This document shows positions 2,708 through 64,000 of a stretch of 64,000 nucleotides of DNA, piece after piece (the stretch's first letter is position 1; every line of letters begins with the position of its first letter). Position numbers and translations under genes: made by a program. Below the pieces are notes generated by a model. It saw nothing but the letters and a program-made list of their open reading frames with translations. It had not been told where the DNA came from and did no database searches. The stretch is taken from the NCBI RefSeq assembly GCF_009914755.1, contig NC_060929.1, one strand, 5' to 3'. This DNA is from the human T2T-CHM13v2.0 reference genome, Homo sapiens.

Positions 2708-2712
2708 TAAGT

Positions 2713-3314
<602 letters not shown>

Positions 3315-3329
3315 TCTCATTTTTTTTTA

Positions 3330-10954: not shown

Positions 10955-11276
<322 letters not shown>

Positions 11277-11711: not shown

Positions 11712-11999
11712 TTAGGCGAGGCCTCACTCTGTCACCCAGGCTGGAATGCAGTGGTGTGATGTTGGCTCACTGCAACGTCTACTACCCAGGCTCAAGAGTT
11801 CCTCCCACCTCAGCCTCTTGAGTAGCTGAAACCACAGGCACCTGCCACCACGCCTGGCTATTTTTTTTTTTTCATTTTTGGAAGAGATGGTGTTTCACCA
11901 TGTTGCCCAGGCTGGTCTTGAACTCCTGTGCTCAAGTCATCCATATACCTCAGCCTCCCAAAGTGCTGGGATTACAGGCGTGAGCCACCTCATCTCACC
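11712..11999 (-). mobile_element. Alu
   Basis: It matches the reverse-complement Alu consensus and ends gtgagccacctcatctcacc. Confidence 0.8.
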
Positions 12000-15236: not shown

Positions 15237-17427
<2,191 letters not shown>

Positions 17428-18039: not shown

Positions 18040-18634
<595 letters not shown>

Positions 18635-18837
18635 TAGCTTTCTTAATGTTGTGCATGGTATGTTAGCTTTTATTTATATTTTCTGTTAGATTATTGATAA
18701 TATAGTGAAATATTATTAATAAGTTAAAATTTCTCTTGATTCTATCATCTTTGCTGATATTTCTGATCAGTTCTGAATTTATGACTTATTTTTGTTTTTC
18801 TAGGTAGATTATTGCATCAATAATAAATAATGAATGA

Positions 18838-19155
<318 letters not shown>

Positions 19156-20016
19156 TATTTTTTTCTTGTCTTATAGTATTGGGACCAGGACCTACAGTAA
19201 CATATTAAACAGTAGAGATAATGGCAAGCATCCATATTTTATTTTCAGTTTTAAAGGTAATGTATTTAAACTTTCTATATAAAGTTAATGTCTACTATAG
19301 GTTTCTAATGTGTAGTTCTACCAAGTAGAGGAATTTTCCTAAAAGTTATTTTAAATCAGAATTATGTATTGAACCTTATTAAATGCTCTAGTTGTTTGAA
19401 TGTTGGCCCCCAAGAAGATATGTCCGTTTCCTAGTATATGGACCTTATTGGAAATGTGACCTTGTTTGGAAAAGGGGTCTTTGCAGATGTAATTAAGTTA
19501 ATCATCTTAAAATGAGATCATTCTGGGTTATCAAGGTTGGCACTAAATTCAGTGATAAGTGTCCATATAAGACACAGAAAAAGACACAGAGAAGAGAAGC
19601 AAATTAATATAGAGGAACATATTGGGCTGATACACCTAGAAGGAATGTCAACAGCCACCAGAAGCTGGAACAAAGAAGGATCATTCTCCCCTAGAGCCTT
19701 TTGGCAGAAGGATAACTCTGCTAATACCCTGATCTTGGACATATGGCCTCTACAGCTGTGAGAGAATAAATTTGTTTTAAGCCACCATATTTGTGGTAAT
19801 TTGTTACAGCAGCCTTGTGAAATTAATACAAATGCTTTTCTTTATTATTTGATTTTTATCTTTTAGTTTGTTACACAGTCAATTTCTGACTAGTGTTCAG
19901 TGCCAATATCAAACAATTGCAGGTACTTTTAATTGGGAGGAGATTCACACAGAAAATTGTGTGCTAACAAAATTTTTGGAAGGGTTTAAGTAGTAAGCTG
20001 AACAAAACTGGTTTAC

Positions 20017-30027: not shown

Positions 30028-33402
<3,375 letters not shown>

Positions 33403-35278: not shown

Positions 35279-36161
<883 letters not shown>

Positions 36162-40950: not shown

Positions 40951-42712
40951 CCACCCCAGCAGAGAGGGGGAGGTGGCACCGTGTTATTTTCTGCACAGTC
41001 CAGGCTGTCCACATGGTCTCCTCTGATACCACAACTGTGGAGCTTGCTAGCAGTTGGGGGAATGAAAGTCTCAGTTTCATTTTTTGGCCTGATCTGATAC
41101 CACCAGAAGTATTGGGATTCCTCATTAACAGCTTTGCAAGAGCGTTAATCTAGATTCCCCACTCAACTTTTGCTGGTGTGGGGCCACAGTTTTTTTCTGT
41201 GGTGATTACCTGGAGTAAATGATTATCTAGGAGCTTTTTGTCTTGCTAGGCTGCCTATTTCCTGGTCCTTTGTCTAGAGAAAGCATGCTTTTTTTTTTGA
41301 GCTTTTTGCATCAGTACCCAATAATGTTTCTGGTTGTTGGCTTCTTCTGGTCCAAGTCTGGAATAGATAAGGCAAAAACCCAGAGATTTCACCACTGTGT
41401 CAGTCTTCAAAATTTATAACACTTTAAAGTATTTTGCACTTCCAAATGTTGACAATGTTCTCTAAATCTGCTAACCTTTAGAATGTTTCCAAGTTTAAAG
41501 TTTGCTTCACTTTTAGACTAAGAGAATATTCATGTATCTTATGTTGCTCTATCTTTTGTAATAAAGTAATTACTACATTGAACTGTTAAAATATATAAAC
41601 TGCTTGTTAAAAATAAAATAGCTCCATGTTTTGTCTATATCTTAATTATCAAGTAAACAAGGATTTAGGCTTTCTGATTATGAAGACATACTGGATTAAA
41701 TAATCCTTATTCACATTAATGTCCTTAACTATTCTTAGTACTTAAAATATAAACATTATGGCCATTCCTTTAAAAAAAAACTAGTGATAGCTTATTCTGA
41801 TCACATTTCTTAGTCAAACTAAGATGTAGCTATGGGATTCTGATTATGAATTGGACTGAAATTGAAAGAGAGGTTTATTAATAGGTAGGTTATTCTCAAA
41901 TTATTTTTTAAATATATCTTTGCATAAGATTTACATTTTTCTTTTGACTATGGATTATATAAAGATTCTCAGTACGTGTCTCTGATATTGCGATTCAATA
42001 TCCATATGATTTTTGTTGTAATATGACAATGTTTGGTCTTGATAAGAAAAAAGCATGGATGAAAATTTAACATAGGAATAAAAGATCTAGTGGACACCGA
42101 TTCAATTAGGAATACTGAGTTTTGGAAGTCAGAGTTATAAGTTCAATACTTAGGTCATTATGTTATATAACAACAAGGGAAAATGTCACAAATATCTTTA
42201 TTCTAACAGTTAAAGTATCAGAAAATGATGAAGTTGTTCATACCACATTAAAGGAATTTTACATGTGTTCAGAAATTTTCCAAAAATGTCATCTGTAAGT
42301 ACCTGATAACTATATATACATGTGCATATGTACGTGTGTGTGTATAATATCATTTAAAAAAAAACACCCAAGCTATCCTAGAATAAGGTGAATCATATCA
42401 GTCAAACTACCTTATTTTAAAACTTTGACATTCAGTTGCAAATATTTAATAATAAAAATATATAAGCTGATAAATCGTTTTAAATAAAATGATGTAAGGA
42501 GAGGTTAAGTAGATCTTAAAGTTTCTAATTCAATTGTAATATGTTTGTAATCATTACTAAAAGAAAATACTGGATTACACACTCTCCAATGAGATTTGAA
42601 ATGTTCTGGGTCTTAAAAGGACATAAAATTGAAAATGATTGCATTTAACAAATTGCAGACGGATATAGATTGCATTTTGAAAATCAACGAATGGATCTAA
42701 AATTTACATTGG

Positions 42713-42742
42713 CCACATGATGTCGCTGTACACCACAAAGTC
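42713..42742 (+). promoter_or_regulatory. PCDHA1 promoter conserved sequence element (CSE), with the CGCT core at 42724-42727. This is a CTCF-bound promoter site.
   Basis: The sequence is ccacatgatgtcgctgtacaccacaaagtc, 189 bp upstream of the ATG. The same ~20-mer recurs before every variable exon in the window. Confidence 0.85.
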
Positions 42743-42912
42743 TTGTCAATAGAAGGGAGCTACTGATCACTAAAAGTGAAGGAGGAAGCTCCATTTTGTC
42801 ACCGCCTGAGAGAAGACAGAAACGGTAAAGAGATAAATGATTGGAAATATTAGATAAAATGGCATGATTTTGAAGTAAGAGGAGAGCATAAGAAAGGTGT
42901 AGTCCTTTTGCA

Positions 42913-45306
42913 ATGGTGTTTTCTAGGAGAGGGGGCCTGGGAGCCCGGGATCTGCTTCTTTGGCTTCTGCTCCTCGCAGCCTGGGAGGTGGGGAGCGGCC
43001 AGCTCCACTACTCGATCCCGGAGGAAGCCAAACACGGCACCTTCGTTGGCCGCGTTGCTCAGGACCTGGGACTGGAGCTGGCGGAGCTGGTGCCTCGCCT
43101 GTTCCGGGTGGCGTCCAAAACACACAGGGACCTTCTGGAGGTAAATCTGCAGAATGGCATTTTGTTTGTGAATTCTCGGATCGATCGCGAGGAGCTGTGC
43201 CAGTGGAGCGCGGAGTGCAGCATCCACCTGGAGTTGATCGCCGACAGGCCGCTGCAGGTTTTCCATGTGGAGGTGAAGGTGAAAGACATTAACGATAATC
43301 CACCCGTCTTCAGGGGCAGAGAACAAATAATATTTATTCCTGAATCTAGACTCCTGAATTCGCGTTTTCCGATAGAAGGAGCTGCTGATGCAGACATTGG
43401 TGCTAACGCTCTTCTAACGTACACGCTCAGCCCGAGTGATTATTTCTCTTTGGATGTAGAGGCAAGTGATGAACTGAGTAAATCTCTTTGGCTTGAATTG
43501 AGAAAATATTTGGATAGAGAAGAAACACCAGAACTTCACTTATTACTGACTGCCACTGATGGGGGCAAACCGGAGCTGCAAGGTACAGTTGAGCTGCTGA
43601 TCACCGTCCTCGACGTTAATGATAACGCCCCACTGTTTGACCAGGCCGTATACAGAGTCCACTTGTTAGAGACTACAGCAAATGGAACATTAGTGACCAC
43701 ATTAAATGCCTCTGATGCTGACGAAGGTGTAAATGGTGAAGTCGTCTTTTCCTTTGACAGTGGTATTTCTCGTGACATTCAAGAAAAATTCAAAGTTGAT
43801 TCCAGCTCAGGAGAAATTAGGTTAATTGATAAACTGGATTATGAAGAAACAAAATCCTACGAAATTCAAGTAAAGGCAGTTGATAAAGGAAGTCCTCCGA
43901 TGTCAAATCACTGTAAGGTTTTGGTGAAAGTGCTGGATGTAAATGATAATGCTCCAGAACTGGCGGTCACTTCATTGTATTTGCCTATCAGAGAGGACGC
44001 TCCACTCAGCACCGTCATCGCCCTCATCACCGTGTCTGACCGTGACTCAGGTGCCAACGGGCAGGTGACTTGCTCCTTAATGCCCCACGTCCCCTTCAAG
44101 CTGGTGTCCACCTTCAAGAATTACTACTCGTTGGTGTTGGACAGCGCCCTGGATCGCGAGAGCCTGTCGGTCTATGAGCTGGTGGTGACCGCGCGGGACG
44201 GGGGCTCGCCTTCGCTGTGGGCCACGGCCAGGGTGTCCGTGGAGGTGGCCGACGTGAATGACAACGCGCCTGCGTTCGCGCAGCCCGAGTACACAGTATT
44301 CGTGAAGGAGAACAACCCGCCGGGCTGCCACATCTTCACGGTGTCTGCGCGGGACGCGGACGCGCAGGAGAACGCGCTGGTGTCCTATTCGCTGGTGGAA
44401 CGGCGGGTGGGCGAGCGCGCGCTGTCGAACTACGTGTCAGTGCACGCGGAGAGCGGCAAGGTGTACGCACTGCAGCCCCTGGACCACGAGGAGCTGGAGC
44501 TGCTGCAGTTCCAGGTGAGCGCGCGGGATGCGGGCGTGCCGCCTCTGGGCAGCAACGTGACGCTGCAGGTGTTCGTGCTGGACGAGAACGACAACGCGCC
44601 GGCGCTGCTGGCGCCTCGAGTGGGTGGCACTATTGGTGCAGTCAGTGAGCTGGTGCCGCGATTGGTGGGTGCGGGTCATGTGGTGGCGAAGGTGCGCGCA
44701 GTGGACGCCGACTCGGGCTACAACGCGTGGCTGTCCTATGAACTGCAGCCGGCAGCAGGCGGCGCGCGCATCCCGTTCCGCGTGGGGCTGTACACGGGCG
44801 AGATCAGCACGACTCGTGTCCTGGACGAGGCTGACTTGTCGCGCTACCGCCTTCTGGTGCTAGTGAAGGATCACGGTGAGCCGGCGCTGACAGCCACGGC
44901 CACTGTGCTTGTATCTCTGGTGGAGAGCGGCCAGGCGCCAAAGGCGTCTTCGCGGGCGTCGGTGGGTGTCGCGGGCCCAGAGGCGGCGCTGGTGGATGTC
45001 AACGTGTACCTGATCATCGCCATCTGCGCGGTGTCCAGCCTGCTGGTGCTCACACTGCTGCTGTACACGGCGCTGCGGTGCTCAGTGCCGCCCACTGAGG
45101 GTGCGTATGTGCCGGGCAAGCCCACTCTGGTGTGCTCCAGCGCGTTGGGGAGCTGGTCGAACTCACAGCAGAGGCGGCAGAGGGTGTGCTCTAGCGAGGG
45201 CCCACCCAAGACCGACCTCATGGCCTTCAGCCCAGGCCTATCTCCAAGTCTTAACACGTCAGAAAGAAATGAACAACCAGAAGCAAATTTGGATCTTTCT
45301 GGTAAT
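42913..45306 (+). CDS. PCDHA1: Protocadherin alpha-1 variable exon (signal peptide, EC1-EC6, TM, proximal cytoplasmic segment). The CDS stops at the GT donor, and the remainder of the protein comes from constant exons outside the window.
   Basis: The ORF starts [34 protein letters not shown]. It has six cadherin repeats with [36 protein letters not shown] and DENDNAPAL junctions. The TM helix is [26 protein letters not shown]. The frame is closed at ...LDLSGN immediately before gtaagt at 45307. The N-terminus matches my memory of human PCDHA1. Confidence 0.85.
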
Positions 45307-45312
45307 GTAAGT
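45307..45312 (+). other. 5' splice donor (gtaagt) ending the PCDHA1 variable exon.
   Basis: It is in phase 0 after codon AAT (N). Downstream read-through gives nonsense (VSPTFEFWL*). Confidence 0.8.
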
Positions 45313-45776
45313 CCAACTTTCGAGTTTTGGCTTTAAATATTTTTCATATTTAACTTGTCTAATCATCTTTTCAAATATCACTTTAAAAAATGTCTTCAAG
45401 GTGTTCACTAACGTTGAAATAAATCATACCATTGAATGTAGATATCCTATTAATGGCAGTTTTGTCTTGAATGGAACTAGAAAGCAAAGAAAAATGTAGG
45501 GACAAATTGTCGTATTTCTTGATTTAAATGGCAGGTTAAAAAAGCTACAATACAAGGTACAATAAAAGGTAATGTTGGTCATATTTAACACAATATCTCA
45601 ATGTAGTAAAATAACAGTGACATATTCGGGGTAACTTATTATGTTATCTTTTCTGGTGAAATGTCAAGCCCCGGACAAACAATTCTTGACAAAGTTACAG
45701 AAATCATCTGCCTTCCCTTTACGTGGCTAAGTTTCAAAGTGAACAATAAACTGAAGTTTTAAGCAAACGTAATTTA

Positions 45777-46127
<351 letters not shown>

Positions 46128-50559: not shown

Positions 50560-51310
50560 TATACACATATATTTTCAATGGACTAAAATACCTTTGATTA
50601 CTATGTTCTTCATTTGAAGAAATAGTGAAAAATGCTAATATATCCAAAAGAATTGAAAGCAGGGTCTCAAAGAAATATATGCACACCCATGTTCATGGCA
50701 GCACTGTTCACAACAGTCAAGAAATGGAAGCAACTCAAATGTCCACGAATACTTGAATGAATAAACAAAACGTGGTGTATACATATGTTGGACTATTATT
50801 CAGCCTTAAAAAGGAAAGAAGTCCTGTCACATGTTACAATATGGATGAACCTTGAGGAACCATCCACGGATGCTTGAATGAATAAACAAAACGTGGTGTA
50901 TACATACGATGGACTAGTATTCAGCCTTAAAAAGGAAATAAATCTTGTCACATGCTACAACATGGATGAACCTTGAGGACATTGTGCTAAGTGAAATAGG
51001 CCAGTCACAAAAAGACAAATACTTTACGAGTCCACTTACACGAAATATCTAAAGTAGTGAAATTCATAGAAATAGAAAATAGGACTGTGGTTACCAGAGA
51101 CTGGAGTGACGGTGAAAAGCGGAGTTGTTGTCTAATGGGTATAGAGTTTCTGTTTTCCAAGATGAAAAATTTGTAACAATGTGAATATACTTAACATTAC
51201 TGAAATGTACATTTAATCATAGTTAATATGGTAATTTTAAATATTATGTTGTGTGTTTTTTAACCAGAGTAAAAAAGGGTAAAAAGGTAATATATTTTAG
51301 GGCTTAAAAT
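50560..51310 (+). mobile_element. Old L1 (L1M-type) 3' end with an internal ~118-bp tandem duplication (50750-50866 and 50868-50985). It lies 100-850 bp upstream of the PCDHA2 CSE.
   Basis: It is the same family as 1-780 in opposite orientation. The unit cttgaatgaataaacaaaacgtggtgtatacata...atggatgaaccttgagga is repeated twice in tandem. Confidence 0.55.
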
Positions 51311-51406
51311 AGTTATTTTTTTCCAAGATGAAAGCTATGAGTAAACTTAAACCAGAAAATCGACTAGTTTTAAATCTACAGAATAAACAGTAGAGCCTTC
51401 CTTTTA

Positions 51407-51438
51407 GCCACATGATGTCGCTGTCCACCATAGAGTGT
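51407..51438 (+). promoter_or_regulatory. PCDHA2 promoter CSE, with CGCT at 51419-51422.
   Basis: The sequence is agccacatgatgtcgctgtccaccatagagtg, 168 bp upstream of the ATG at 51587. Confidence 0.85.
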
Positions 51439-51586
51439 TCTCTAGGAAGGAAAATACCCAGAGCCCCTTTGTTACTTCAGAGAAGCGGAGGAATAAGAGA
51501 AGCAGCAGGACTTTAACAGAGACTAGAATATTTAAATTTTTGCAAAACATGCTCTTCTAATTTGATCAAAACATTGAGGATTGGTA

Positions 51587-53974
51587 ATGGCGTCTTCTAT
51601 CAGAAGGGGCCGAGGGGCCTGGACACGGCTGCTCTCGCTTCTGCTCCTCGCAGCCTGGGAGGTGGGGAGCGGCCAGCTCCGCTACTCCGTCCCCGAGGAG
51701 GCCAAACACGGCACCTTCGTGGGCCGCATCGCGCAGGACCTGGGGCTGGAGCTGGAGGAGCTGGTGCCGCGCCTGTTCCGGGTGGCGTCCAAAAGACACG
51801 GGGACCTTCTGGAGGTAAATCTGCAGAATGGCATTTTGTTTGTGAATTCTCGGATCGACCGGGAGGAGCTGTGCGGGCGGAGCGCGGAATGTAGCATCCA
51901 CGTGGAGGTGATCGTGGACAGGCCGCTGCAGGTTTTCCATGTGGAAGTGGAGGTGAAGGACATTAACGACAACCCGCCAATATTTCCAATGACAGTAAAG
52001 ACTATCCGGTTTCCCGAATCAAGGCTGCTTGATTCTCGGTTTCCTCTAGAGGGAGCATCTGATGCAGATATAGGAGTAAATGCTCTTCTCTCCTACAAGC
52101 TCAGCTCCAGTGAGTTTTTCTTCCTAGATATACAGGCAAATGATGAACTAAGCGAATCTTTGTCTCTCGTGCTGGGGAAATCGCTGGACAGAGAGGAAAC
52201 TGCTGAGGTTAATTTGTTACTGGTGGCTACTGATGGGGGCAAACCTGAGCTCACGGGCACCGTTCAAATACTTATTAAGGTATTAGATGTAAATGACAAT
52301 GAACCAACTTTTGCCCAATCAGTTTACAAAGTAAAATTGTTAGAGAATACGGCAAATGGGACCTTAGTGGTTAAGTTAAACGCTTCTGATGCAGATGAAG
52401 GACCGAACAGCGAGATTGTGTATTCACTCGGTAGTGATGTGTCCTCCACTATACAGACTAAGTTTACCATAGATCCCATCTCAGGGGAAATCAGAACTAA
52501 GGGAAAATTAGATTATGAAGAAGCAAAGTCCTACGAGATTCAGGTCACTGCAACTGACAAAGGAACCCCTTCAATGTCAGGACATTGTAAAATTTCATTA
52601 AAACTTGTGGACATCAATGATAACACACCAGAAGTCTCAATAACGTCTCTCTCACTTCCCATCTCAGAGAACGCTTCCCTGGGCACTGTCATTGCTCTCA
52701 TCACGGTGTCGGATCGCGACTCTGGTACGAATGGACATGTCACCTGCTCCCTGACGCCCCACGTCCCTTTCAAGCTGGTGTCCACCTTCAAGAATTACTA
52801 CTCGTTGGTGCTGGACAGCGCCCTGGACCGCGAGAGCGTGTCAGCCTATGAGCTGGTGGTGACCGCACGGGACGGGGGCTCGCCTTCACTGTGGGCCACC
52901 ACCAGCGTGTCCATCGAGGTGGCCGACGTGAACGACAACGCGCCGGCGTTCGCACAGCCTGAGTACACAGTATTCGTGAAGGAGAACAACCCGCCGGGCT
53001 GCCACATCTTCACGGTGTCAGCGTGGGATGCGGACGCGCAGGAGAACGCGCTGGTGTCCTACTCGCTGGTGGAGCGGCGGGTGGGCGAGCGCGCGTTGTC
53101 GAGCTACGTTTCGGTGCACGCGGAGAGCGGCAAGGTGTACGCGCTGCAGCCGCTGGACCACGAGGAAGTGGAGCTGCTGCAGTTCCAGGTGAGCGCGCGG
53201 GATGCGGGCGTGCCGCCTCTGGGCAGCAACGTGACGCTGCAGGTGTTCGTGCTGGACGAGAACGACAACGCGCCGGCACTGTTGGCGCCTAGGGCTGGCA
53301 CCGCTGCTGGCGCAGTGAGTGAGCTGGTGCCGTGGTCGGTGGGTGCAGGGCACGTGGTGGCGAAGGTGCGCGCAGTGGACGCTGACTCAGGCTACAACGC
53401 GTGGCTTTCGTACGAGCTTCAGCTGGGTACTGGCAGCGCTCGCATCCCGTTCCGCGTGGGGCTATACACGGGTGAGATCAGCACGACACGTGCCCTAGAC
53501 GAGGCTGACTCCCCTCGACACCGCCTACTCGTGCTGGTGAAGGACCACGGCGAACCAGCGTTGACAGCCACGGCCACCGTGTTAGTGTCGTTGGTGGAAA
53601 GTGGCCAGGCACCCAAGGCCTCGTCGCGGGCGTGGGTGGGCGCCGCGGGCTCAGAGGCTACGCTGGTGGATGTCAACGTGTACCTGATCATCGCCATCTG
53701 CGCGGTATCCAGCCTGTTGGTGCTCACGGTGCTGCTGTACACTGCGCTGCGGTGCTCGGTGCCACCCACCGAGGGTGCGCGCGCGCCAGGAAAGCCCACG
53801 CTGGTGTGCTCCAGCGCCGTGGGGAGCTGGTCTTACTCGCAGCAGAGGCGGCAGAGGGTGTGCTCTGGGGAGGACCCCCCCAAGACGGACCTCATGGCCT
53901 TCAGCCCTAGCTTATCTCAAGGTCCAGACTCCGCAGAAGAGAAACAGCTCTCAGAATCAGAATACGTAGGAAAG
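51587..53974 (+). CDS. PCDHA2: Protocadherin alpha-2 variable exon. The ATG is at 51587; the ORF-track start at 51581 is a TTG artefact.
   Basis: The protein reads [44 protein letters not shown]..., with six EC repeats and a TM helix. The exon ends ...SESEYVGK followed by gtgagt at 53975. Confidence 0.85.
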
Positions 53975-53980
53975 GTGAGT
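53975..53980 (+). other. 5' splice donor (gtgagt) ending the PCDHA2 variable exon.
   Basis: It is in phase 0 after AAG (K), and the downstream sequence is AT-rich nonsense. Confidence 0.8.
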
Positions 53981-54467
53981 CTTTTACTTTTTCTTGCCAA
54001 TTCTAAAATTGTTCTTTTTAAAAAATTCTATATGATTTCTACTAGTTATTTAGATTCATAGTTCTTCATTTATTTTATATCATCCTACCGTGCGATTTTG
54101 AATATGAATTAGAGATCAATTTATTGCATTTACTGAACAATTTATTTAAACAATCTACATAACTGTTTTCTTATTTTTACATTTTGGCACTTCCATCATT
54201 AAGTCATAAGTAATAGACCATGAAACACTGAAAAACACCTCAGCAAAATTTGTAAATTAAACATTTCCCATAAATATTTTCTCTCTTAAAAATTGAAAAT
54301 CACAATCGGAAGAAATTAAAGAATTTGATTATATAATACGTATTTTCAACTGACACTGTCTATCCAATCTGTCGGATAGTGTTTGGAATAACCTATATCC
54401 TGGACATTTCTTAGATTGTTCTTTGGATCAACAATGCCCTTGTCTATGCAATAGTTAATAAGCTACA

Positions 54468-54793
<326 letters not shown>

Positions 54794-57619
54794 TTTTTAT
54801 TTGTATTTGAAAGCAGCCTGAGTGGATATTTTAACACCAGAATTTCCAAAAGTATGTAGCACAGGTTGTTACAACAAAATGACAGCACTTAGGAATAACT
54901 GCTAATCTTAAGTATGTTTTTTATAAGTAAAATAACCCATTATTTGGTATAAAGATTTCACACTGATAACATTTTTGAGTTATCAGGCAAAAATAGAGAG
55001 TATTGAGAAAAGAGACCCTCTCAATTTTGTTTAATTTGAAAATATTAACATTTAAAAATCACACTGGGGTTTTTCAGGTGGTGGGACTTTTTCTTCATTT
55101 AAGTGGAGACTACCCAGTCTTTATGTTAATGGTTGATAAATCATCCTTTCAGTATCATTATCATTAGGCCAATGTGTGCAGGCCTCCCACTGCAGAGATT
55201 GACTACTTTTTTCTGGCATCTAATTCTATGCGTGGGAATACATTTTCCATTAATGTGAGCTCACTCAATTTTACCTGGAAGCATCCATATTCCTAATGAA
55301 ATTGGAATTTTTCCAAAAGATGAGGCCTGGTCTTGGATGACTACATTTTCACTTGAAACATTTATTTTGGGTAATTATAACACTGAACTCGACAAGTAAA
55401 TGTTACACTTGGAAAGAACTTTTTTAGCTTTTCCAACCAAAGGCAGATGTATTGCAATAAAATAACTGTCTTAAACGGTCCTCTACTATTTAGTTCTTAG
55501 TTATTTGCTGTTTATTCTAAATATATGTGCATATTGATAAATCATAGAAATAACTTCCACTAGTGATCTTACCTTTAGCCATTTCATAGTTAGGTCAGAA
55601 TATCCATTTCCAAGTAATACTTGACCACTATGTTTCTACCATAGGTAAATGATAAGCTTCTAAAATTATATTCACATATATCCAAATCTCCAGGAGTCAC
55701 AATCTGTTGCTCTATAAGTTTTTTCAAAACATTCTTATTTACATTTTTTCTTGGTTGTCTAAGTGACATCTAGGTGGTAGTAGAAATTATTCACTGATAC
55801 TTTATCTACAAAATGGCTCAATCTTCTAAACTCATAGTTCCTTTAATATTACCTTTATCTCTTAATAATCAGTATGGAGTCTACTCTGCTATAAATTCTC
55901 ATGTGACATTCCATTTTGCAATTAGTATAACTCTTAAAGGTACTGAAAAGTGCAGTATTACAATAAGTTGTCAAAGGCATCTCATTACTATGAAGTCCAT
56001 GAAGTTTAAAAATTTTAAATTTATCTCTTATTTTCAAACTAGCTACCATCTTTAAAAATTCAGCAAAGTGGTAACTGGAATATTAATAGCTATAATTATT
56101 TCTTAGGTCCATGCTTTTCAGAAATAATGCTTAAATGTTTACTTACTTCTTCATAATATAGCACAATATAATCATTTAGAAATTATGTAAGTTTGATATT
56201 AACAAATATCATTAACTTACATTTTTATTTATCTTGCTTGAAAAAGTTAATTCAAAATATTAATTTATTTATTCATGAAAACAACAATTGATAATTTATC
56301 CTATTCTAAATATGAATGATAAAATCTGAGTAAGTTGCAGTCCTGGCTTCCATTTCATGAATACACAGGAAACAAAAGCTGAAATGAAAACTTTTCCCCT
56401 AAATATTTAAATCACATGTTTGATTTCATTTTTAAATGGTCTGGGTATAAGCAAAAATTTGTACATTATTTTATTTCTCTAAATTTGACCTCTTTCCATA
56501 AATTTTCTTTGCCCCACTTCCAAATGCGGCGAGAATTCATGCTTCTCATTGAATTCACAGATATCTTTAGAATGTTTTATTGCTTAGTGTTAAATATGTT
56601 GAGTAAATACTGGCTTATGTTCCTAGGTTACTTTTCTCCCTTCACTGTTTAGTTAAATAATCAATTCTTTCAAGTAACAACTTTTAAAAAAACTGGAATC
56701 TAGAAATTCATCAGGAGTGGAGATCATCAAAAACGTAATTACTTTATATTGTTAACATTTTAGTATATACAGGTAAATTCAAATACATAAAGAGTGTGGA
56801 AAAATTAAACCTAATATATTCTTAATTGATGTGATGTGAGTGTAACAAATATACAAATCACATTCCCACAATAGGAAACAAATTTCCTGTTTGAATTTCT
56901 CTGTAAAGGACCGACTTCTGAAATCTTTATGTAAGTTACAGTCAAGACAGTTGATGAGGCTATAGTTCTTGAAAAAGGGGCATGGGAGGGAATTACAGAC
57001 ATTCTACAAATTTAAAAAACCATAAATGTACATATTTTAAGAAATTAACAGTTGCTGTAATAACATAAAAGTAGATATATGTATGTTTTAATATATACAG
57101 CACACACACACTTTTAAATACTTCAACATCTCAATGTTTTGATGATCATAAATCTGAAAGGATCTGATTTTTCTATAAAATGTAACTTGGGTGGTAAAGA
57201 GGTTAATGGTAAGTTGTCTTGAATCAGATTGAAATCCCATCGTACCAAGAGATAATATCGTTTTACTTAACCTCTATGTGTTTATAAAAAGCGAATAATA
57301 TTAAAACTTATTTCAGAGGATTGTGATAATTTAACGGGATAATTCCATTAAGACAAATAGAAAAGTGGCTGTCACATGGGAAATATTTCCAATAGATGTC
57401 CACTGTTAAAACAGGAATCACAATATTTTAGTGTATGTCATGAATTAGCACAATTGATAGTGAATTAGTATAAAAGTTCTAAGGAAATATTTAGATAAAA
57501 TATAAGGACTTTGAGGAGTGACCGAAGGATATTACAATTGAAACTAGAAATTTTGGGAAAGTTCAAACGACATACAAGGAAAAGAAGATACGTTTACATA
57601 TTTAATACTTACACGTTTA

Positions 57620-57650
57620 GCCACATGATGTCGCTGTCCACCACAAGGTC
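57620..57650 (+). promoter_or_regulatory. PCDHA3 promoter CSE, with CGCT at 57632-57635.
   Basis: The sequence is agccacatgatgtcgctgtccaccacaaggtc, 188 bp upstream of the ATG at 57820. Confidence 0.85.
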
Positions 57651-57819
57651 TTTCTCCACAAAAGAAATAACAGCGTGCATTACGTATTCAGATACTGCTT
57701 TGCTTCATCCTCTCTAAAATTTAACACCGAGGAGTTTAAGAAATGAAGATAAGGAACTCGAATTATTTTTAAACTTTGGATCAATGTAAAGGCAATCTAA
57801 TATTTGGAAAATACTTGCA

Positions 57820-60213
57820 ATGTTGTTCTCCTGGCGAGAAGATCCTGGAGCCCAGTGCCTGCTGCTTTCTCTTCTGCTCCTCGCAGCCTCGGAGGTGGGG
57901 AGCGGCCAGCTCCACTACTCCGTCTCTGAGGAGGCCAAGCATGGCACCTTCGTGGGCCGCATCGCGCAGGACCTGGGGCTGGAGCTGGCGGAGCTGGTGC
58001 CGCGCCTGTTCCGGGTGGCGTCCAAAAGACACGGGGACCTTCTGGAGGTAAATCTGCAGAATGGCATTTTGTTTGTGAATTCTCGGATAGACCGCGAGGA
58101 ACTGTGCGGGCGGAGCGCGGAGTGCAGCATCCACCTGGAGGTGATCGTGGACAGGCCGCTGCAGGTTTTCCATGTGGAGGTGGAAGTGAAGGACATTAAT
58201 GACAACGCGCCAGTTTTTCCAATGGCTGTAAAGAATCTGTTTATTTCCGAATCCCGACAGCCTGGCTCTCGGTTTTCGCTAGAGGGCGCATCAGATGCAG
58301 ATATCGGAACAAATTCGTTGTTGACTTACAGTCTTGATTCCACTGAATATTTTACCTTGGACGTTAAAAGAAATGATGAGGAAATTAAATCCCTTGGACT
58401 CGTGTTGAAAAAAAATTTAAATCGAGAGGACACTCCTAAGCATTATTTACTAATAACAGCAATTGATGGTGGGAAACCAGAGCTCACTGGCACGACTCAA
58501 CTAAAGATCACTGTTTTAGATGTAAACGACAACGCCCCAGCGTTTGAGAGGACGATCTATAAAGTCAGATTACTCGAAAATGCACCAAATGGTACCCTAG
58601 TGGTGACCGTTAACGCCACCGATTTGGATGAAGGAGTAAATAAGGATATCGCGTATTCTTTCAATACGGACATGTCAGCAGATATTCTGTCAAAATTCCA
58701 TTTAGATCCAGTCAATGGACAAATCAGTGTAAAGGGTAACATAGATTTCGAGGAAAGTAAGTCATATGAAATCCAGGTAGAAGCCACGGATAAAGGAAAT
58801 CCCCCAATGTCAGATCACTGCACAGTTCTACTCGAAATTGTGGACATCAATGATAATGTACCTGAGTTAGTTATTCAATCACTATCTTTACCTGTATTAG
58901 AAGACTCTCCACTTAGCACAGTCATCGCTCTGATCAGCGTGTCCGACCGCGACTCAGGAGTCAATGGACAGGTCACCTGCTCGCTGACGCCCCACGTCCC
59001 CTTCAAGCTGGTGTCCACCTTCAAGAATTACTACTCATTGGTGCTGGACAGCCCTCTGGACCGCGAGAGCGTGTCGGCCTATGAGCTGGTGGTGACTGCT
59101 CGGGACGGGGGCTCGCCTTCACTGTGGGCCACGGCCAGCGTGTCCGTGGAGGTGGCCGACGTGAACGACAATGCGCCGGCATTCTCGCAGTCCGAGTACA
59201 CGGTGTTCGTGAAGGAGAACAACCCGCCGGGCTGCCACATCTTCACGGTGTCTGCGCGGGACGCGGACGCGCAGGAGAACGCCCTGGTGTCCTACTCGCT
59301 GGTGGAACGGCGGGTGGGGGAGCGCGCGCTGTCGAGCTACGTGTCGGTACACGCGGAGAGCGGCAAGGTGTACGCGCTGCAGCCGCTGGACCACGAGGAG
59401 CTAGAGCTGCTGCAGTTCCAGGTGAGTGCGCGCGATGCGGGCGTGCCGCCTCTGGGCAGCAACGTGACGCTGCAGGTGTTCGTGCTGGACGAGAACGACA
59501 ACGCGCCGGCACTGCTGATGCCTCGGGTGGGTGGCATCGGTGGCGCAGTGAGCGAGCTGGTGCCGCGGTCAGTGGGTGCGGGCCACGTGGTAGCGAAGGT
59601 GCGCGCAGTGGATGCAGACTCAGGCTACAACGCGTGGCTTTCGTATGAGCTGCAGCCTGGGACCGGCGGTGCGCGCATCCCGTTTCGCGTGGGGCTGTAC
59701 ACGGGAGAGATCAGCACGACCCGTGCCCTGGACGAGGTGGACGCCCCGCGCCATCGCCTACTGGTGCTGGTGAAGGACCACGGTGAACCCTCATTGACCG
59801 CCACGGCCACTGTGCTGGTGTCGCTGGTGGAGAGTGGCCAGGCACCCAAGGCCTCGTCCCAGGCGTCCGCTGGCGCCACGGGCCCGGAAGCTGCACTGGT
59901 GGATGTCAACGTGTACTTGATCGTCGCCATCTGCGCGGTGTCCAGTCTGTTGGTGCTCACACTGCTGCTATATACTGCTCTGCGGTGCTCCGCGCCGCCA
60001 ACCGAAGGCGACTGTGGGCCGGGCAAGCCCACGCTGGTGTGCTCCAGCGCGGTGGGGAGCTGGTCATACTCGCAGCAGAGGCAGCAGAGGGTGTGCTCTG
60101 GAGAGGGGTTGCCCAAGACCGACCTCATGGCTTTTAGCCCTAGCCTTCCTCCTTGTCCAATTAGCCGGGATAGAGAGGAGAAACAGGATGTGGACGTTGA
60201 TCTCTCAGCCAAA
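57820..60213 (+). CDS. PCDHA3: Protocadherin alpha-3 variable exon.
   Basis: The protein reads [44 protein letters not shown]... and has the same domain layout. The exon ends ...VDVDLSAK followed by gtgagt at 60214. Confidence 0.85.
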
Positions 60214-60219
60214 GTGAGT
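60214..60219 (+). other. 5' splice donor (gtgagt) ending the PCDHA3 variable exon.
   Basis: It is in phase 0 after AAA (K). Confidence 0.8.
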
Positions 60220-62055
60220 AATTTTTATTTATTCTTTCCAAAATGTCTTTGTTTTTCATTCCTCAATGTTTCCACTCCTCTGGAAATACATTAATAGTTA
60301 AGTATGAATTATGTGATTCATAATTAGACTTTTCCAGTTTTGTGGTTTTGTGGTTAAAACGGTAAGATTTTTGTTGCTAATTTTTGAACCAAATCAGCAG
60401 TAAGTTATGATATCCACACTTGTAATTTTGTTTTGTTATTAGGTGCAGTAGTAGAATTATTTTATTGCTAAATGCCTGGGTATAAGACAAATATTTTTTC
60501 TTAGATGAATTGCATTATTTAGAGAATCTGACTTCGACTTGTTTTATACTTATCCCTATACAATGCTTCTTCAATATCTTTTGCCACTTTTCATTTGGAC
60601 TTCCTACTACCTGTTAGTACAAATGTTACTTGCTCATTTTATGAGTTCACCTAATGCTTATAACTCCCTATTGATTATGCTTTTCCACCTTCAGTTTCAA
60701 AAATTAGATCATTACACCTGTTGTCTTTTATGGAACCTCTTTTATTCTCTTATTCACTTGTTTGGAGTCTCAATCCTTATTTTTTACTTGAATATGATTC
60801 ATTTTAGGCCTTGTGCTCTAATTTGGCAATACCGTTTATTGTTTCTTGATTTCCCAGTTGGGAAAAAAATCGAGAATAACAATTGCATTTAGAATTGCAT
60901 CTTTGTTCATCTTTAGTTTATCACTACTTTATTTAATACTACTTTAATAATACTACTGTATTATATGTTAAAATTTATTACTAATAACTAAAATATCAAT
61001 ATGAAGTGAAAATTTAATAGTTGTATAGTATATTTATATATTCATTTTAAAAGAATGTTTTAAATCTTGTTAAAAATAATTTTCAATCTGAACAATATCT
61101 TGAAAATAATTATGGTATCTAATTTTAAAACTATCCCTACTAGCAAAACTTTTTATTCATTAGTGTCTTTTGCATACCATACTAAGGATGCTAATATGAA
61201 ATAAGTTTGATAAGCCAATGTTATAATGTTATTACTGGTTAACTTCTCTGAATAGCATCCTGCCTATTAATGTGTGCCATGCAATAAGTAGAAAACTCCA
61301 AATAACCAGAACCAAATGAAATTGAAGGTAGACTTTTTTCTAATCACTACCCCTACATATTTGGTTATCTCCTCTAGCAATTAGTTGGACTCCCATTTAA
61401 GTTTCCCTACCACTGGAGAGAAATAGTAACCAACTGAAACCTGGTTAATACTCATTGACAGTGTGGGAGGTCTAACACGTAAAATAGATATTTTTCTTGA
61501 CTCCTCTCCTTCCCCTCACTTCCATTTTCTTTATTTCCTTTTTTGGCACTATCCTTTGTTGCTCCCTTGTCCATGAAGTAGTAGCCATAGTGTGTCCATC
61601 TCAGGTCAGTATTTTAAAAATTTAGTTCTGTTATCAGCTTCTTGAATATAATAGAGTCAGCCAAAGTACTTGTCTTCCCAGATATGGAACTTCAATCTTC
61701 AAATCCAGCTTGCCTCTTGAAACTATTGTCTAACAAGACTCTTGGCAAAGACATTTTGAAGACTTTGGAATTTTCACTTCACAGATGTACTGATGCTATG
61801 CCAAATAAATATTGAATAGCTACCAAATAAACATTGTTTTCTATTCTGCTGCATTCCCCATCTGTACATTAAAATACCTGGTAAATGAAAATATTACAAA
61901 TGAAATGGGTGAAAATGGAATTCTTCCTCCTTTTTTCCAATGTGCTTGATGTCAATGATCATTTTGTAAAAATATAGTTTGGGTCCCCACATAGTGAAAG
62001 TACTCTGGTTTCTGTTTGATTCAGAAATTTGGTGGGTTTTTTGTTGTTGTTTTGG

Positions 62056-62092: not shown

Positions 62093-63603
62093 AATAGAGA
62101 GGGAGCGTAAAGCTATTTTCACTAGATTGATTTTTTGTTTAGACAAACAGGATGAAAATAACTTTATGGATATAGGAGGCAAGGAAAGTTTTTAAATGGC
62201 TACCATTATGTCTTTATATATTAAATTTCTTTATGTAAGAAAATGTATTGTGGTTTATTTATTGGGAAGTCTTCATTCCCCATTAATACCCAGGATGATT
62301 CAAAGATCATGATTACCAAGAATTAGAATAAAAATTAAGCTAAAACCCAAGTTTTCAACATTGAACTTGAAATACATCTTAATTGGGGAAATGTCTAGAG
62401 ACTTTTTTTGTATCTTTAGAAAATCATAGAGGCTATTGAAACACCACATTTTCCCAACTAGATATGCGATCACCTTAAATTAATGCATTTTATTAGGCAA
62501 TGGAAGGAAGCAAACATTTTCTGCAGGGTAAATATTTAGGAAATATTAGGTAAGTCCCTCTGAGCTATTAAACAATTAAGATACAACTATTCCCTTTAAA
62601 ATATATATTCCAAAAAAGGACACACATACTCAAATGCTTATAAGAGATAAATTAATGTAATAAATGGCCCACGCGATTCCACCCTGGTGCTGCAGTTTGT
62701 AAAAGAAGAAAAAATACCTGTTCAATTGGTTTGATCATGACATTCTTCATGGGTCAGGGAAGTTTTAAGTGGTTATAAAATGGGGTAAATTGGCTTTAGA
62801 AGAGTTTAGAAATGATGTGGATTACTTATAGACAGGACAAAATGAACATGCTTGTTTATTAAAAAAAGCTATTGGAAGCAGGAAATATTCAGTTTGGCTA
62901 AAATATATAAGCACTATAGGAGAAAATAGAAGCTTAGGCACATTACATACTGGAGAACAAGCAAGTACTTATAAACTGTAAGAGTCAAAATGAGAATACC
63001 AGCGTTTCTCATGGGAGCAAATGAGTTCCAATGAATAAAATTATTTGGAATGCTTTTCCATGCAAGCTATTTGCTATAACTTCCTGCTTCCTTGCACTTT
63101 CAGCCCTGACATGACTCAAGGAAGACATCTAATTAAATGCTGATGGTCTTTGATCCTTTTATAAAACATCTGCAAATTTCCCTGTCAATAGCTTGTTCTT
63201 GGCACCAGAAGTTCCCTAGAGACCAGTCCCCTCAAGTCAACAACACCAGAAATACTAGGGTGAAGAGGGTGTTATCATTAATAAAAAAAAACCCTGGAAT
63301 TCTTGGGAACACAGGAATCTGTAATGAATTTTTCTAATCAACAGTTTACAGTTACATGTTTACAAAGTGTATAGTTAGGTCTCTGTAATACTTAAAACCT
63401 GTGTTGAAAAAATTATTTCTACTGAAGTAAAAGTTGCCCCTATGGCGAAACTAAGGACCACACTCAATCAATCAGTGGTACAATGTGTACCACAGTAGTA
63501 CAAAATGTATTCCTATTCTCCGAAACGACTGAAATAATAAATAAAACCAAGTAGTTTACAGTAGAGTGTGTGGGGGTTTCCACAATTGCTACTTACGGTT
63601 TGG

Positions 63604-63634
63604 AGCCACATGATGTCGCTCTTTACCACAAAAT
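63604..63634 (+). promoter_or_regulatory. PCDHA4 promoter CSE, with CGCT at 63617-63620.
   Basis: The sequence is agccacatgatgtcgctctttaccacaaaata, 193 bp upstream of the ATG at 63810. Confidence 0.8.
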
Positions 63635-63809
63635 ACATGAGAGAAGGAGGAAGAAGGGAAAATTCCTTCTATTCTTACTGGAAGGAACCATATACACTCT
63701 TTGGAGTCTGAAATATGGAGGATGCAGCTGCACTTGACTGACCGATTAAAAGATTTCCCTTGACTTTGAGAAACGATATTTAATCAGAACAAAATACTGT
63801 GCACTAAAG

Positions 63810-64000
63810 ATGGAGTTTTCCTGGGGAAGCGGCCAGGAATCCCGGCGTCTGCTGCTCTTACTTCTTCTCCTCGCAGCCTGGGAGGCAGGGAACGGTCAGC
63901 TCCACTACTCGGTCTCCGAGGAGGCCAAACACGGCACCTTCGTGGGCCGCATCGCGCAGGACCTGGGACTGGAGCTGGCGGAGCTGGTGCCGCGCCTGTT
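63810..64000 (+). CDS. PCDHA4: Protocadherin alpha-4 variable exon, 5' part only; it runs off the end of the window.
   Basis: The ATG at 63810 gives [63 protein letters not shown], which is the PCDHA4 N-terminus as I recall it. A CSE lies 193 bp upstream. Confidence 0.8.

What the first reader, a model, noticed from the sequence alone, without database searches (positions are those of the whole stretch)
43250..44050. Mosaic paralogue similarity: conserved exon ends, divergent EC2-EC3 core
When the three complete exons are aligned, the first ~330 bp (signal peptide/EC1, e.g. [29 protein letters not shown]) and the last ~1.35 kb (from ...[20 protein letters not shown] through the TM helix) are nearly identical at protein level and largely at nucleotide level. 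The central ~700 bp (A1 43300-44000, A2 51960-52700, A3 58200-58950) is highly divergent. This fits the known picture of gene conversion homogenising the exon flanks while the EC2/EC3 homophilic-specificity region is kept distinct.
Basis: partly seen in the sequence, partly recalled or inferred. Interest (0 to 1): 0.5.

Follow-up and report, generated by a model that had tools for sequence, protein, structure and literature searches.

The report
Known gene-conversion mosaic in PCDHA exons
The three large exons are human protocadherin-alpha 1, 2 and 3; their ends have been kept alike by copying between neighbouring exons, while the middle part that sets each protein's self-recognition specificity has stayed distinct since before placental mammals diverged. 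This pattern is real but already well documented.

Summary
Observation confirmed, interpretation supported, already known.

- **What it is.** The window is the human PCDHA cluster (A1 ORF 100% identical to human PCDHA1), with variable exons A1, A2 and A3.
- **The mosaic.** Two-breakpoint max-chi2 places a divergent core at A1 43291-44083, A2 51968-52757 and A3 58198-58963. Chi2 is 150-192, against at most 24 in 200 permutations.
- **Divergence.** Nucleotide divergence is 0.33-0.39 in the core and 0.12-0.13 outside it. Four-fold sites differ at 0.56-0.71 in the core and 0.21-0.26 in the flanks (P 2e-7 to 9e-11).
- **Extent of the core.** It covers EC2, EC3 and the first ~15-45 residues of EC4.
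- **Base composition.** GC3 is 0.38-0.41 in the core and 0.75-0.81 in the flanks.
- **Decisive test.** I compared A1/A2/A3-type exons from Cebus, Lynx, Tamandua and Dipodomys. The core groups by orthologue (100% bootstrap). The flanks group by species or lineage (86-100%) and never by orthologue across orders.
- **Why not constraint.** Human-Cebus orthologue synonymous divergence is no lower in the flanks than in the core.

This is regional gene conversion, as published (Noonan 2004; Wu 2005).

In the human lineage the 3' block was last broadly homogenised before the human-Cebus split.

The parts
42913..45306 (+). PCDHA1 variable exon (ATG to the last base before the GT donor; the ORF reads through to 45336)
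   Evidence: 100% identity to human hCG1982192 isoforms (807 aa read-through form and 950 aa form); best solved relatives are mouse Pcdha7 and Pcdha4.
42913..43290 (+). A1 5' homogenised block (signal peptide + EC1)
   Evidence: EC1 amino-acid identity 0.88-0.95, pS 0.15-0.28, GC3 0.75-0.83; groups by species, not by orthologue.
43291..44083 (+). A1 divergent core (EC2, EC3 and the first ~15-45 residues of EC4); the 3' breakpoint is 43996 against A3 and 44083 against A2
   Evidence: nucleotide divergence 0.33-0.39, pS 0.64-0.91, GC3 0.32-0.41 in EC2/EC3; orthology groups at 100% bootstrap.
44084..45250 (+). A1 3' homogenised block (rest of EC4, EC5, EC6, TM, start of the variable cytoplasmic part)
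   Evidence: EC5 amino-acid identity 0.96-0.97 and pS 0.16-0.21; EC6 pS 0.40-0.46; GC3 0.71-0.93. BLAST similarity ends at 45245-45269, before the donor.
51587..53982 (+). PCDHA2 variable exon (ATG 51587; donor GT inferred from the alignment, end approximate)
   Evidence: human PCDHA2 isoforms are among the hits, and the 824 aa read-through isoform has the same length as the ORF from 51587.
51968..52757 (+). A2 divergent core
   Evidence: breakpoints 51968/52001 and 52730/52757.
57820..60215 (+). PCDHA3 variable exon (donor GT inferred from the alignment, end approximate). Named by its position after A1 and A2; no protein match to PCDHA3 was made.
   Evidence: In some searches its core pairs with the second Lynx exon.
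58198..58963 (+). A3 divergent core
   Evidence: breakpoints 58198/58234 and 58903/58963.
42710..42745 (+). Conserved sequence element (CSE, promoter CTCF site) of A1, about 200 bp upstream of the ATG. It is the only conserved island outside the coding sequence. Counterparts lie at 51403-51442, 57616-57652 and 63603-63621.
   Evidence: invariant GCCACATGATGTCGCTGT.CACCA. Identified as the CSE/CTCF site from PMC7811963.
43366..43384 (+). Candidate exonic CTCF site (eCBS) inside the divergent core. Counterparts lie at A2 52040-52058 and A3 58273-58291.
   Evidence: forward-strand CTCF-like matches at homologous positions, 635-655 bp downstream of the CSE. PMC7811963 places the eCBS about 700 bp downstream, in forward orientation. 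The PWM was recalled from memory and A1 scores below my cut-off, so this is an inference.

Best explanation
These are the variable exons of human PCDHA1, PCDHA2 and PCDHA3. The mosaic is the footprint of regional, non-allelic (interlocus) gene conversion between tandem paralogous exons.

Conversion tracts repeatedly overwrite the signal-peptide/EC1 block and the block from mid-EC4 through EC5, EC6 and the TM helix. These blocks therefore evolve in concert within a lineage and become GC3-rich through GC-biased repair.

Tracts do not persist across EC2, EC3 and the first part of EC4. That core has kept a separate identity for each isoform since before the eutherian radiation, and it evolves under purifying selection within each orthologue line.

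**Shown here:**
- the breakpoints;
- the contrast at silent sites;
- the species-versus-orthologue tree conflict;
- the GC3 contrast;
- the same boundaries in five mammalian lineages.

**Inferred:**
- The molecular event is heteroduplex formation during double-strand-break repair.
- The core is protected by two things. Selection acts against loss of a distinct EC2:EC3 homophilic specificity. The core's own ~35% divergence blocks heteroduplex extension.

In the human lineage the last broad homogenisation of the 3' block fell after the split from Glires and before the split from platyrrhines. Only short later tracts are hinted at.
For: **Identity**
- 100% identity to human PCDHA1.
- Cadherin_2 plus five Cadherin domains.
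- mouse Pcdha7 and Pcdha4 are the closest solved structures.

**Mosaic**
- chi2 150-192, against at most 24 in permutations.
- four-fold sites differ at 0.56-0.71 in the core and 0.21-0.26 in the flanks (P 2e-7 to 9e-11).
- per-domain table.

**Concerted evolution**
-, within-species paralogue pS in the 3' block: Lynx 0.00, Tamandua 0.06-0.09, Dipodomys 0.10, human 0.26-0.27. Between-order values are 0.17-0.39.
-, core: orthologue pS 0.09-0.46, paralogue pS 0.67-0.83.
- bipartition bootstraps give 100% orthology in the core, 0-2% in the flanks, and species groups at 86-100%.

**Not silent-site constraint**
- human-Cebus orthologue pS in the flanks (0.16-0.25) is at least that of the core (0.09-0.14).

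**GC-biased signature**
- GC3 0.75-0.81 in the flanks, 0.38-0.41 in the core.

**Restricted to coding sequence**
- similarity starts at the ATG and ends 40-60 nt before the donor. Only the ~35 bp CSE is shared upstream.

**Same boundaries in all lineages**
- A1 residues 122-139 to 362-409.

**Literature**
- PMC4978886, PMC1852091, PMC7811963 and PMC5001838 describe the same pattern. They cite Noonan et al. 2004 (Genome Res 14:354) and Wu 2005 (Genetics).
Against: - Human A1-A3 flanks are not very similar at silent sites (pS 0.22-0.28). In the 5' block a primate clade is not resolved (5-32% bootstrap). For human, the case for the 5' block therefore rests partly on analogy with the other lineages.
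- Only one genome per species was used. The near-identity of the Lynx 3' tract (3 mismatching codons in about 390) could in principle be an assembly artefact. Tamandua and Dipodomys show the same pattern without perfect identity.
- Only three of the ~13 alternate human exons are in the window, so donors and recipients of tracts cannot be assigned.
- No site-wise test of diversifying selection in the core was possible, because paralogue dS is saturated.
Confidence: 0.92

Rival explanations
1. No conversion. The flanks are alike because purifying selection acts on the protein and also on the DNA or RNA there (exonic CpG island, antisense promoter, CTCF site, codon or GC preference). The core is simply less constrained.
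For: - Flank dN is very low (pN 0.01-0.07 in EC1, EC4b, EC5 and EC6).
- The 3' block is CpG-rich (observed/expected 0.92-0.97).
- PCDHA exons carry regulatory DNA elements (PMC7811963; bioRxiv 10.1101/360206).
- Some runs of 77-109 nt are identical in two or all three human exons.
Against: - Human-Cebus orthologue synonymous divergence in the flanks equals or exceeds that of the core.
- Flanks group by species in Lynx, Tamandua and Dipodomys, and by primates, in 86-100% of bootstraps, including on third positions only. Constraint cannot produce that.
- The candidate eCBS lies in the divergent core, not in the flanks.
Confidence: 0.03
2. The exons duplicated recently, which would explain the similar flanks. 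Positive diversifying selection then drove EC2-EC3 apart rapidly.
For: Core dN is 3-10 times flank dN. The literature reports diversifying selection on EC2/EC3 (Wu 2005, as cited in PMC7811963 and PMC1852091).
Against: - Positive selection raises dN, not dS. Core pS is saturated (0.64-0.91), against 0.15-0.46 in the flanks.
- Each core has a clear orthologue in other eutherian orders with low pN (0.03-0.09), so the duplications predate the eutherian radiation.
- Overall pN/pS in the core is below 1.
Confidence: 0.02
3. Homogenisation occurs by repeated unequal crossing-over between misaligned exons (reciprocal exchange producing hybrid exons), rather than by non-reciprocal conversion tracts.
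For: - A tandem array of ~2.4 kb homologous units spaced 6-9 kb apart is a substrate for unequal exchange.
- Exon content differs between lineages. In Lynx the second exon is an A3-type core with no A2-type exon between. The third Tamandua exon has no close human A1-A3 counterpart.
Against: - A single unequal crossover homogenises everything on one side of the breakpoint, intergenic DNA included. Here the sequence between exons is not alike.
- Both ends of each exon are homogenised around an unconverted core, which would need two exchanges per event.
- The order of orthologous cores A1 then A2 is kept in human, Cebus, Tamandua and Dipodomys.
Confidence: 0.03

Closest known systems
Regional gene conversion in clustered protocadherin variable exons (Noonan et al. 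2004, Genome Res 14:354; Wu 2005, Genetics; as summarised in PMC4978886, PMC1852091 and PMC7811963)
   Same: - Same locus type and the same pattern: low paralogue dS and high GC3 in the C-terminal ectodomains, with EC2/EC3 escaping homogenisation.
- Published average identities among mouse alpha isoforms are EC1 96, EC2 69, EC3 59, EC4 85, EC5 98, EC6 84% (PMC4978886). Human A1-A3 here give EC1 88-95, EC2 61-68, EC3 54-64, EC5 96-97, EC6 87-90%.
   Different: Nothing essential. Details added here:
- exact breakpoints for human A1-A3;
- extension of the core ~15-45 residues into EC4;
- the same boundaries in five eutherian lineages;
- an older date for the last broad homogenisation in anthropoid primates than in Lynx, Tamandua or Dipodomys.
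Fugu and zebrafish Pcdh subcluster homogenisation (PMC1852091)
   Same: A highly similar 3' region of the variable exon, a divergent 5' region, boundaries in EC4/EC5, and elevated GC3 in the converted part.
   Different: In fugu the 3' regions are more than 99% identical and the whole N-terminal part (EC1-EC3) is divergent. In the human alpha exons EC1 is also homogenised, and flank identity is only about 87-88% at nucleotide level.
Structural model of cPcdh trans recognition (antiparallel EC1-EC4 dimer; PMC5001838, and PDB 5dzv/5dzw found)
   Same: The divergent block coincides with EC2 and EC3, the repeats reported to carry isoform specificity. Alpha isoforms are reported to have low isoform-specific conservation at the EC1/EC4 interface, which matches the homogenised EC1 and most of EC4.
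   Different: No binding or structure analysis was done here. The correspondence is positional.

Membership tests
Clustered protocadherin alpha variable exon | One ~2.4 kb exon encodes the signal peptide, six cadherin repeats, the TM helix and a short cytoplasmic stretch | tested here: met
   Cadherin_2 plus 5 Cadherin stretches in each ORF; five DxNDNxP linkers at A1 residues 125, 234, 342, 447 and 557; hydrophobic TM segment.
Clustered protocadherin alpha variable exon | Sequence identity to annotated PCDHA genes | tested here: met
   A1 ORF is 100% identical over 100% coverage to human hCG1982192 isoforms (807 and 950 aa). Primate 'protocadherin alpha-1' proteins are 92-98% identical. Human PCDHA2 entries are among the hits, and the 824 aa isoform has the same length as the A2 ORF. 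A3 was not matched to a named protein and is named by position.
Clustered protocadherin alpha variable exon | Own promoter with a conserved sequence element (CSE, CGCT box) about 200 bp upstream | tested here: met
   invariant GCCACATGATGTCGCTGT at 42710, 51405, 57618 and 63603.
Clustered protocadherin alpha variable exon | The exon ends in a 5' splice donor for cis-splicing to constant exons | tested here: met
   GTAAGT/GTGAGT at the aligned position in all three (A1 45307). The constant exons are outside the window and were not seen.
Interlocus gene conversion / concerted evolution | Paralogue silent-site divergence is lower inside the tract than in adjacent sequence | tested here: met
Interlocus gene conversion / concerted evolution | Tract sequences group by species while adjacent sequence groups by orthologue | tested here: met
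   100% against 0% bootstrap in both directions for the 3' block; 86-94% species groups in the 5' block. For human itself the grouping is at primate level (97-100% in the 3' block; unresolved in the 5' block).
Interlocus gene conversion / concerted evolution | Silent sites of the tract are not slowed between orthologues | tested here: met
   Hs_A1-Cebus_1 pS 0.17 / 0.14 / 0.19 and Hs_A2-Cebus_2 pS 0.16 / 0.09 / 0.25 (5' / core / 3').
Interlocus gene conversion / concerted evolution | Elevated GC3 in converted regions (GC-biased repair) | tested here: met
   0.75-0.81 against 0.38-0.41.
Interlocus gene conversion / concerted evolution | Direct observation of non-reciprocal transfer events | not testable with these tools
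   Needs population, pedigree or sperm-typing data.
Diversifying selection on EC2-EC3 | Sites with dN/dS above 1 among paralogues | tested here: inconclusive
   core pN 0.18-0.27 with saturated pS, so the ratio is below 1 overall and uninformative. Orthologue pN in the core is 0.03-0.09, which shows purifying selection within each isoform.

The most novel reading that the evidence does not exclude
The rate of exon-flank conversion may differ strongly between mammalian lineages while the tract boundaries stay fixed. Among A1-A3, the broad 3' homogenisation in the human/Cebus lineage predates the catarrhine-platyrrhine split (paralogue pS 0.26-0.33). Lynx, Tamandua and Dipodomys show much more recent events (pS 0.00-0.10). 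In all five lineages the unconverted core spans the same residues (about 125-135 to about 360-410). That would point to a hard barrier rather than a gradual decay of tract frequency. It would also imply that the CpG-island-like 3' exon body is a by-product of GC-biased conversion.
Probability: 0.45. Interest if true: 0.3.

Novelty: already known. Interest (0 to 1): 0.15.

Why it matters
The pattern shows how a tandem array can keep about a dozen distinct recognition specificities (EC2-EC3) while the parts used for shared functions stay uniform. Those shared parts are EC1/EC4 affinity contacts, EC5-EC6 cis interactions and membrane anchoring.

Practical consequence: orthology of PCDHA exons should be assigned from EC2-EC3 only. 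Read mapping and variant calls in the flanks are prone to paralogue confusion.

Tried and rejected
- **Strict CTCF consensus.** CCASYAGRKGGCRS with 1 mismatch gave no match in the window. A PWM recalled from memory then found the CSEs and a candidate eCBS. I treat the eCBS as an inference only.
- **Primary papers.** Noonan 2004b (PMC353213) and Wu 2005 (PMC1449604) are not held. Their content is cited second-hand from PMC4978886, PMC1852091 and PMC7811963.
- **Old World monkey locus.** The look-up with P0018 failed.
- **GENECONV.** It is not installed. I substituted max-chi2 with permutation and a longest-identical-run permutation test within the flanks (P 0.001-0.013).
- **Post-split human tracts.** Counts hint at them, for example the EC5 tract with Hs_A1-Hs_A2 2 differences against 6 and 6 to the Cebus orthologues. 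The numbers are too small to claim.
- **First tree's support values.** The midpoint-rooted NJ tree gave unreliable support near the root. A proper bipartition bootstrap replaced it.
- **Other features.** Rfam, ORF and tandem-repeat scans of the whole window found only interspersed repeats.
Full report
**1. What is in the window**

Three + strand ORFs of 807-826 aa lie at 42913-45336, 51581-54061 (first ATG at 51587) and 57820-60294. Each carries an N-terminal Cadherin_2 domain and five further Cadherin domains.

The closest solved structures are mouse Pcdha7 EC1-5 (5dzv) and Pcdha4 EC1-4 (5dzw).

The first ORF is 100% identical over its full length to human hCG1982192 isoforms of 807 and 950 aa. 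Primate proteins named protocadherin alpha-1 are 92-98% identical. Human PCDHA2 entries are also among the hits, and the 824 aa isoform has the same length as the second ORF. I did not match the third ORF to a named protein and call it A3 from its position.

The window is therefore the 5' end of the human PCDHA cluster, with variable exons A1, A2 and A3.

- The true exon ends at a GT donor (A1 45306|45307). The ORFs read on into the intron, which matches the annotated short read-through isoforms.
- Each exon has the promoter conserved sequence element GCCACATGATGTCGCTGT about 200 bp upstream.
- A fourth CSE (63603-63621) and an ATG at 63810 start another exon, PCDHA4 by its position, which runs off the window.

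**2. Checking the observation**

A codon-based alignment of the three exons gives a sharply non-uniform profile.

| Region (alignment columns) | Nucleotide identity, 30-codon windows | dS |
|---|---|---|
| 16-135 | 0.84-1.00 | about 0.0-0.8 |
| 121-390 | 0.52-0.78 | mostly saturated |
| 376-780 | mostly 0.80-0.98 | about 0.04-1.3 |

A two-breakpoint max-chi2 search places the divergent block as follows.

| Exon | Start | End |
|---|---|---|
| A1 | 43291/43294 | 43996/44083 |
| A2 | 51968/52001 | 52730/52757 |
| A3 | 58198/58234 | 58903/58963 |

- Chi2 is 150-192, against a permuted maximum of 24.
- Divergence is 0.33-0.39 inside the block and 0.12-0.13 outside it.

At four-fold degenerate sites in codons encoding the same residue, 56-71% differ in the core and 21-26% in the flanks (P 2e-7 to 9e-11).

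Per domain, for human A1-A3:

| Domain (A1 residues) | Amino-acid identity | pS |
|---|---|---|
| Signal peptide (1-29) | 0.66-0.69 | 0.18-0.40 |
| EC1 (30-130) | 0.88-0.95 | 0.15-0.28 |
| EC2 (131-238) | 0.61-0.68 | 0.64-0.91 |
| EC3 (239-346) | 0.54-0.64 | 0.72-0.78 |
| First 34 residues of EC4 (347-380) | 0.68-0.74 | 0.70-0.77 |
| Rest of EC4 (381-451) | 0.89-0.93 | 0.19-0.29 |
| EC5 (452-561) | 0.96-0.97 | 0.16-0.21 |
| EC6 (562-672) | 0.87-0.90 | 0.40-0.46 |
| Stalk + TM (673-722) | 0.84-0.90 | 0.22-0.42 |
| Variable cytoplasmic tail (723-798) | 0.66-0.72 | 0.43-0.51 |

- The 5' block is about 380 bp, not about 330 bp.
- The 3' block is about 1.2 kb, not about 1.35 kb.
- The core runs into early EC4.
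- The flanks are 84-89% identical at protein level overall, not nearly identical.

**3. Extent of the similarity**

BLAST of each exon with 1.5 kb of flank shows that paralogue similarity begins at the ATG (42908-42912). It ends 40-60 nt before the splice donor (45245-45269). Outside the coding sequence only the ~35 bp CSE is shared, apart from one inverted interspersed-repeat match in the introns. Homogenisation is thus confined to coding DNA.

**4. Conversion or constraint?**

I fetched the homologous loci of four other species.

| Species | Locus | Exons used |
|---|---|---|
| Lynx rufus | L001 | 2 |
| Cebus imitator | L002 | 2 |
| Tamandua tetradactyla | L004 | 3 |
| Dipodomys spectabilis | L005 | 2 (the second cut by the locus end) |

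*Core.* Orthologues are obvious.
- Hs_A1 against Cebus, Lynx, Tamandua and Dipodomys exon 1 gives pS 0.14, 0.37, 0.39 and 0.38.
- Hs_A2 against Cebus_2, Tamandua_2 and Dipodomys_2 gives 0.09, 0.38 and 0.34.
- Hs_A3 against Lynx_2 gives 0.33.
- All paralogue pairs are at 0.67-0.83.
- Orthologue pN in the core is 0.03-0.09.

*3' block.* The picture inverts. Within-species paralogue pS is 0.00 in Lynx, 0.06-0.09 in Tamandua, 0.10 in Dipodomys, 0.26-0.27 in human and 0.33 in Cebus. Between-order values are 0.17-0.39 whichever exon is compared.

*Bipartition bootstraps* (NJ, JC, 300 codon resamplings, on all sites and on third positions alone):

| Grouping | Core | 5' block | 3' block |
|---|---|---|---|
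| A1, A2, A3 orthologue groups across orders | 100% | 0-2% | 0% |
| Lynx, Tamandua, Dipodomys species groups | 0% | 86-94% | 100% |
| Primate clade (human A1-A3 + Cebus 1-2) | 0% | 5-32% | 97-100% |

Silent sites of the flanks are not slow between human and Cebus orthologues. Hs_A1-Cebus_1 pS is 0.17 / 0.14 / 0.19 for 5' / core / 3', and Hs_A2-Cebus_2 is 0.16 / 0.09 / 0.25. Constraint on silent sites is excluded and concerted evolution is shown.

GC3 is 0.75-0.81 in the flanks and 0.38-0.41 in the core. This is the mark of GC-biased conversion that the literature uses for these genes (PMC1852091).

The core boundaries fall at the same residues in all five lineages (A1 residues 122-139 to 362-409). 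In Lynx the tract from residue 378 to 770 has only three mismatching codons.

**5. Timing in the human lineage**

In all three blocks Hs_A1 pairs with Cebus_1 and Hs_A2 with Cebus_2 (80-100%). Human paralogue pS in the 3' block (0.26-0.27) exceeds the human-Cebus orthologue values (0.19-0.25). The 3' blocks of the human and Cebus exons still form a primate clade that excludes Dipodomys.

The last broad homogenisation of the 3' block therefore falls between the primate/Glires split and the catarrhine/platyrrhine split.

Runs of 77-109 identical bases within the flanks are longer than permutation predicts (P 0.001-0.013). Small difference counts hint at short later tracts, but the numbers are too small to claim.

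**6. Mechanism**

*Shown:* a mosaic with fixed boundaries, concerted evolution of the flanks, ancient orthology and purifying selection in the core, and the GC3 contrast.

*Inferred from established knowledge of ectopic gene conversion:*
- Tracts start in the high-identity blocks during double-strand-break repair between misaligned tandem exons.
- Tracts fail to persist in the core for two reasons. About 35% divergence blocks heteroduplex extension. Conversion of EC2-EC3 would also erase a distinct homophilic specificity and be selected against.

The functional reading rests on published structures and assays. These report that EC2:EC3 contacts set isoform specificity, and that EC1/EC4 contact residues show low isoform-specific conservation in alpha isoforms (PMC5001838, PMC7811963, PMC4978886). 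It was not tested here.

**7. Rivals**

- *Selection without conversion* is rejected by the tree conflict and by the orthologue silent rates.
- *Recent duplication with positive selection on the core* is rejected because core dS is saturated, not only dN, and because the cores have orthologues across eutherian orders.
- *Unequal crossing-over* is unlikely as the homogenising process. The DNA between exons is not homogenised, and both exon ends are converted around an unconverted core. Exon content does differ between lineages, however. Lynx has an A3-type core directly after A1. The third Tamandua exon has no close counterpart among human A1-A3.

**8. Comparison with what is known, and novelty**

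The pattern is published. PMC4978886 states that EC2-3 is less prone to conversion than EC4-6, citing Noonan et al. 2004b. It gives average identities among mouse alpha isoforms that parallel the human values found here:

| Domain | Mouse alpha average (PMC4978886) | Human A1-A3 |
|---|---|---|
| EC1 | 96% | 88-95% |
| EC2 | 69% | 61-68% |
| EC3 | 59% | 54-64% |
| EC4 | 85% | 68-74% (first 34 residues), 89-93% (rest) |
| EC5 | 98% | 96-97% |
| EC6 | 84% | 87-90% |

PMC1852091 notes frequent conversion among human Pcdh paralogues, elevated GC3 in converted regions, and escape of EC2/EC3. PMC7811963 summarises diversifying selection on EC2/EC3 (Wu 2005).

The finding is correct and ordinary: already known. 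The only modest additions are the exact breakpoints, the constancy of the boundaries across five lineages, and the apparent difference between lineages in how recent the last homogenisation is.

Noticed in passing
window 63603-64000: A fourth CSE (GAGCCACATGATGTCGCTC, 63603-63621) and an ATG at 63810 open a further variable exon ([63 protein letters not shown]...). It runs off the window. By position it should be PCDHA4. Its EC1 start closely resembles A2 and A3.
   Followed up: partly
window 43366-43384, 52040-52058, 58273-58291: Forward-strand CTCF-like motif (TTTCCkmTAGArGGmGC) at the same codon position in all three exons, 635-655 bp downstream of each CSE. This fits the published exonic CTCF site (eCBS, about 700 bp downstream of the CSE). 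It lies inside the divergent core, over the conserved FP.EGA.DADIG motif of EC2. The PWM was recalled from memory, and the A1 copy scores below my cut-off.
   Followed up: partly
window 45307-45336, 53983-54061, 60216-60294: Each exon ORF reads past its GT donor into the intron before a stop. The resulting 807 and 824 aa products match annotated human read-through isoforms (hCG1982192 CRA_d; PCDHA2 isoform 2).
   Followed up: partly
L001 17052-19469; L004 16050-18458: Exon content differs between species. In Lynx the exon after A1 has an A3-type core (pS 0.33 to human A3), and no A2-type exon lies between. The third Tamandua exon is only distantly related to human A3 (pS 0.72), so it may correspond to an exon outside the window.
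   Followed up: partly
L001 about 11130-12310 and 18180-19360: The Lynx A1 and A3-type exons have only three mismatching codons over about 1.18 kb (A1 residues 378-770). This is either a very recent conversion tract or an assembly collapse.
   Followed up: partly
window 15460-16947 (-): A 495 aa ORF that I recognised by eye as a LINE-1 ORF2 remnant. No domain search was run on it. It lies in the intergenic DNA upstream of PCDHA1.
   Followed up: no
window 2407-3315 and 35288-35442 (-): Three tandem ~305 bp Alu-like units (TRF score 1241). A separate Alu-like stretch matches the Rfam Metazoa_SRP model at 76 bits.
   Followed up: no
window 45795-46097 and 54473-54788: A ~300 bp stretch in the intron after A1 matches the intron after A2 in inverted orientation (78.8% identity). 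It is probably an interspersed repeat and is not part of the exon homology.
   Followed up: no
window 32788-33010 and 50742-50979: Short tandem arrays in the non-coding DNA: a 59 bp unit with about 3.4 copies, and a 121 bp unit with 2 copies (91% matches).
   Followed up: no
window 44053-45078 and counterparts in A2 and A3: The homogenised 3' exon body is CpG-island-like (about 120-125 CpGs, observed/expected 0.92-0.97, GC3 about 0.8-0.9). The core has 21-32 CpGs. The CpG richness may be a by-product of GC-biased conversion.
   Followed up: partly
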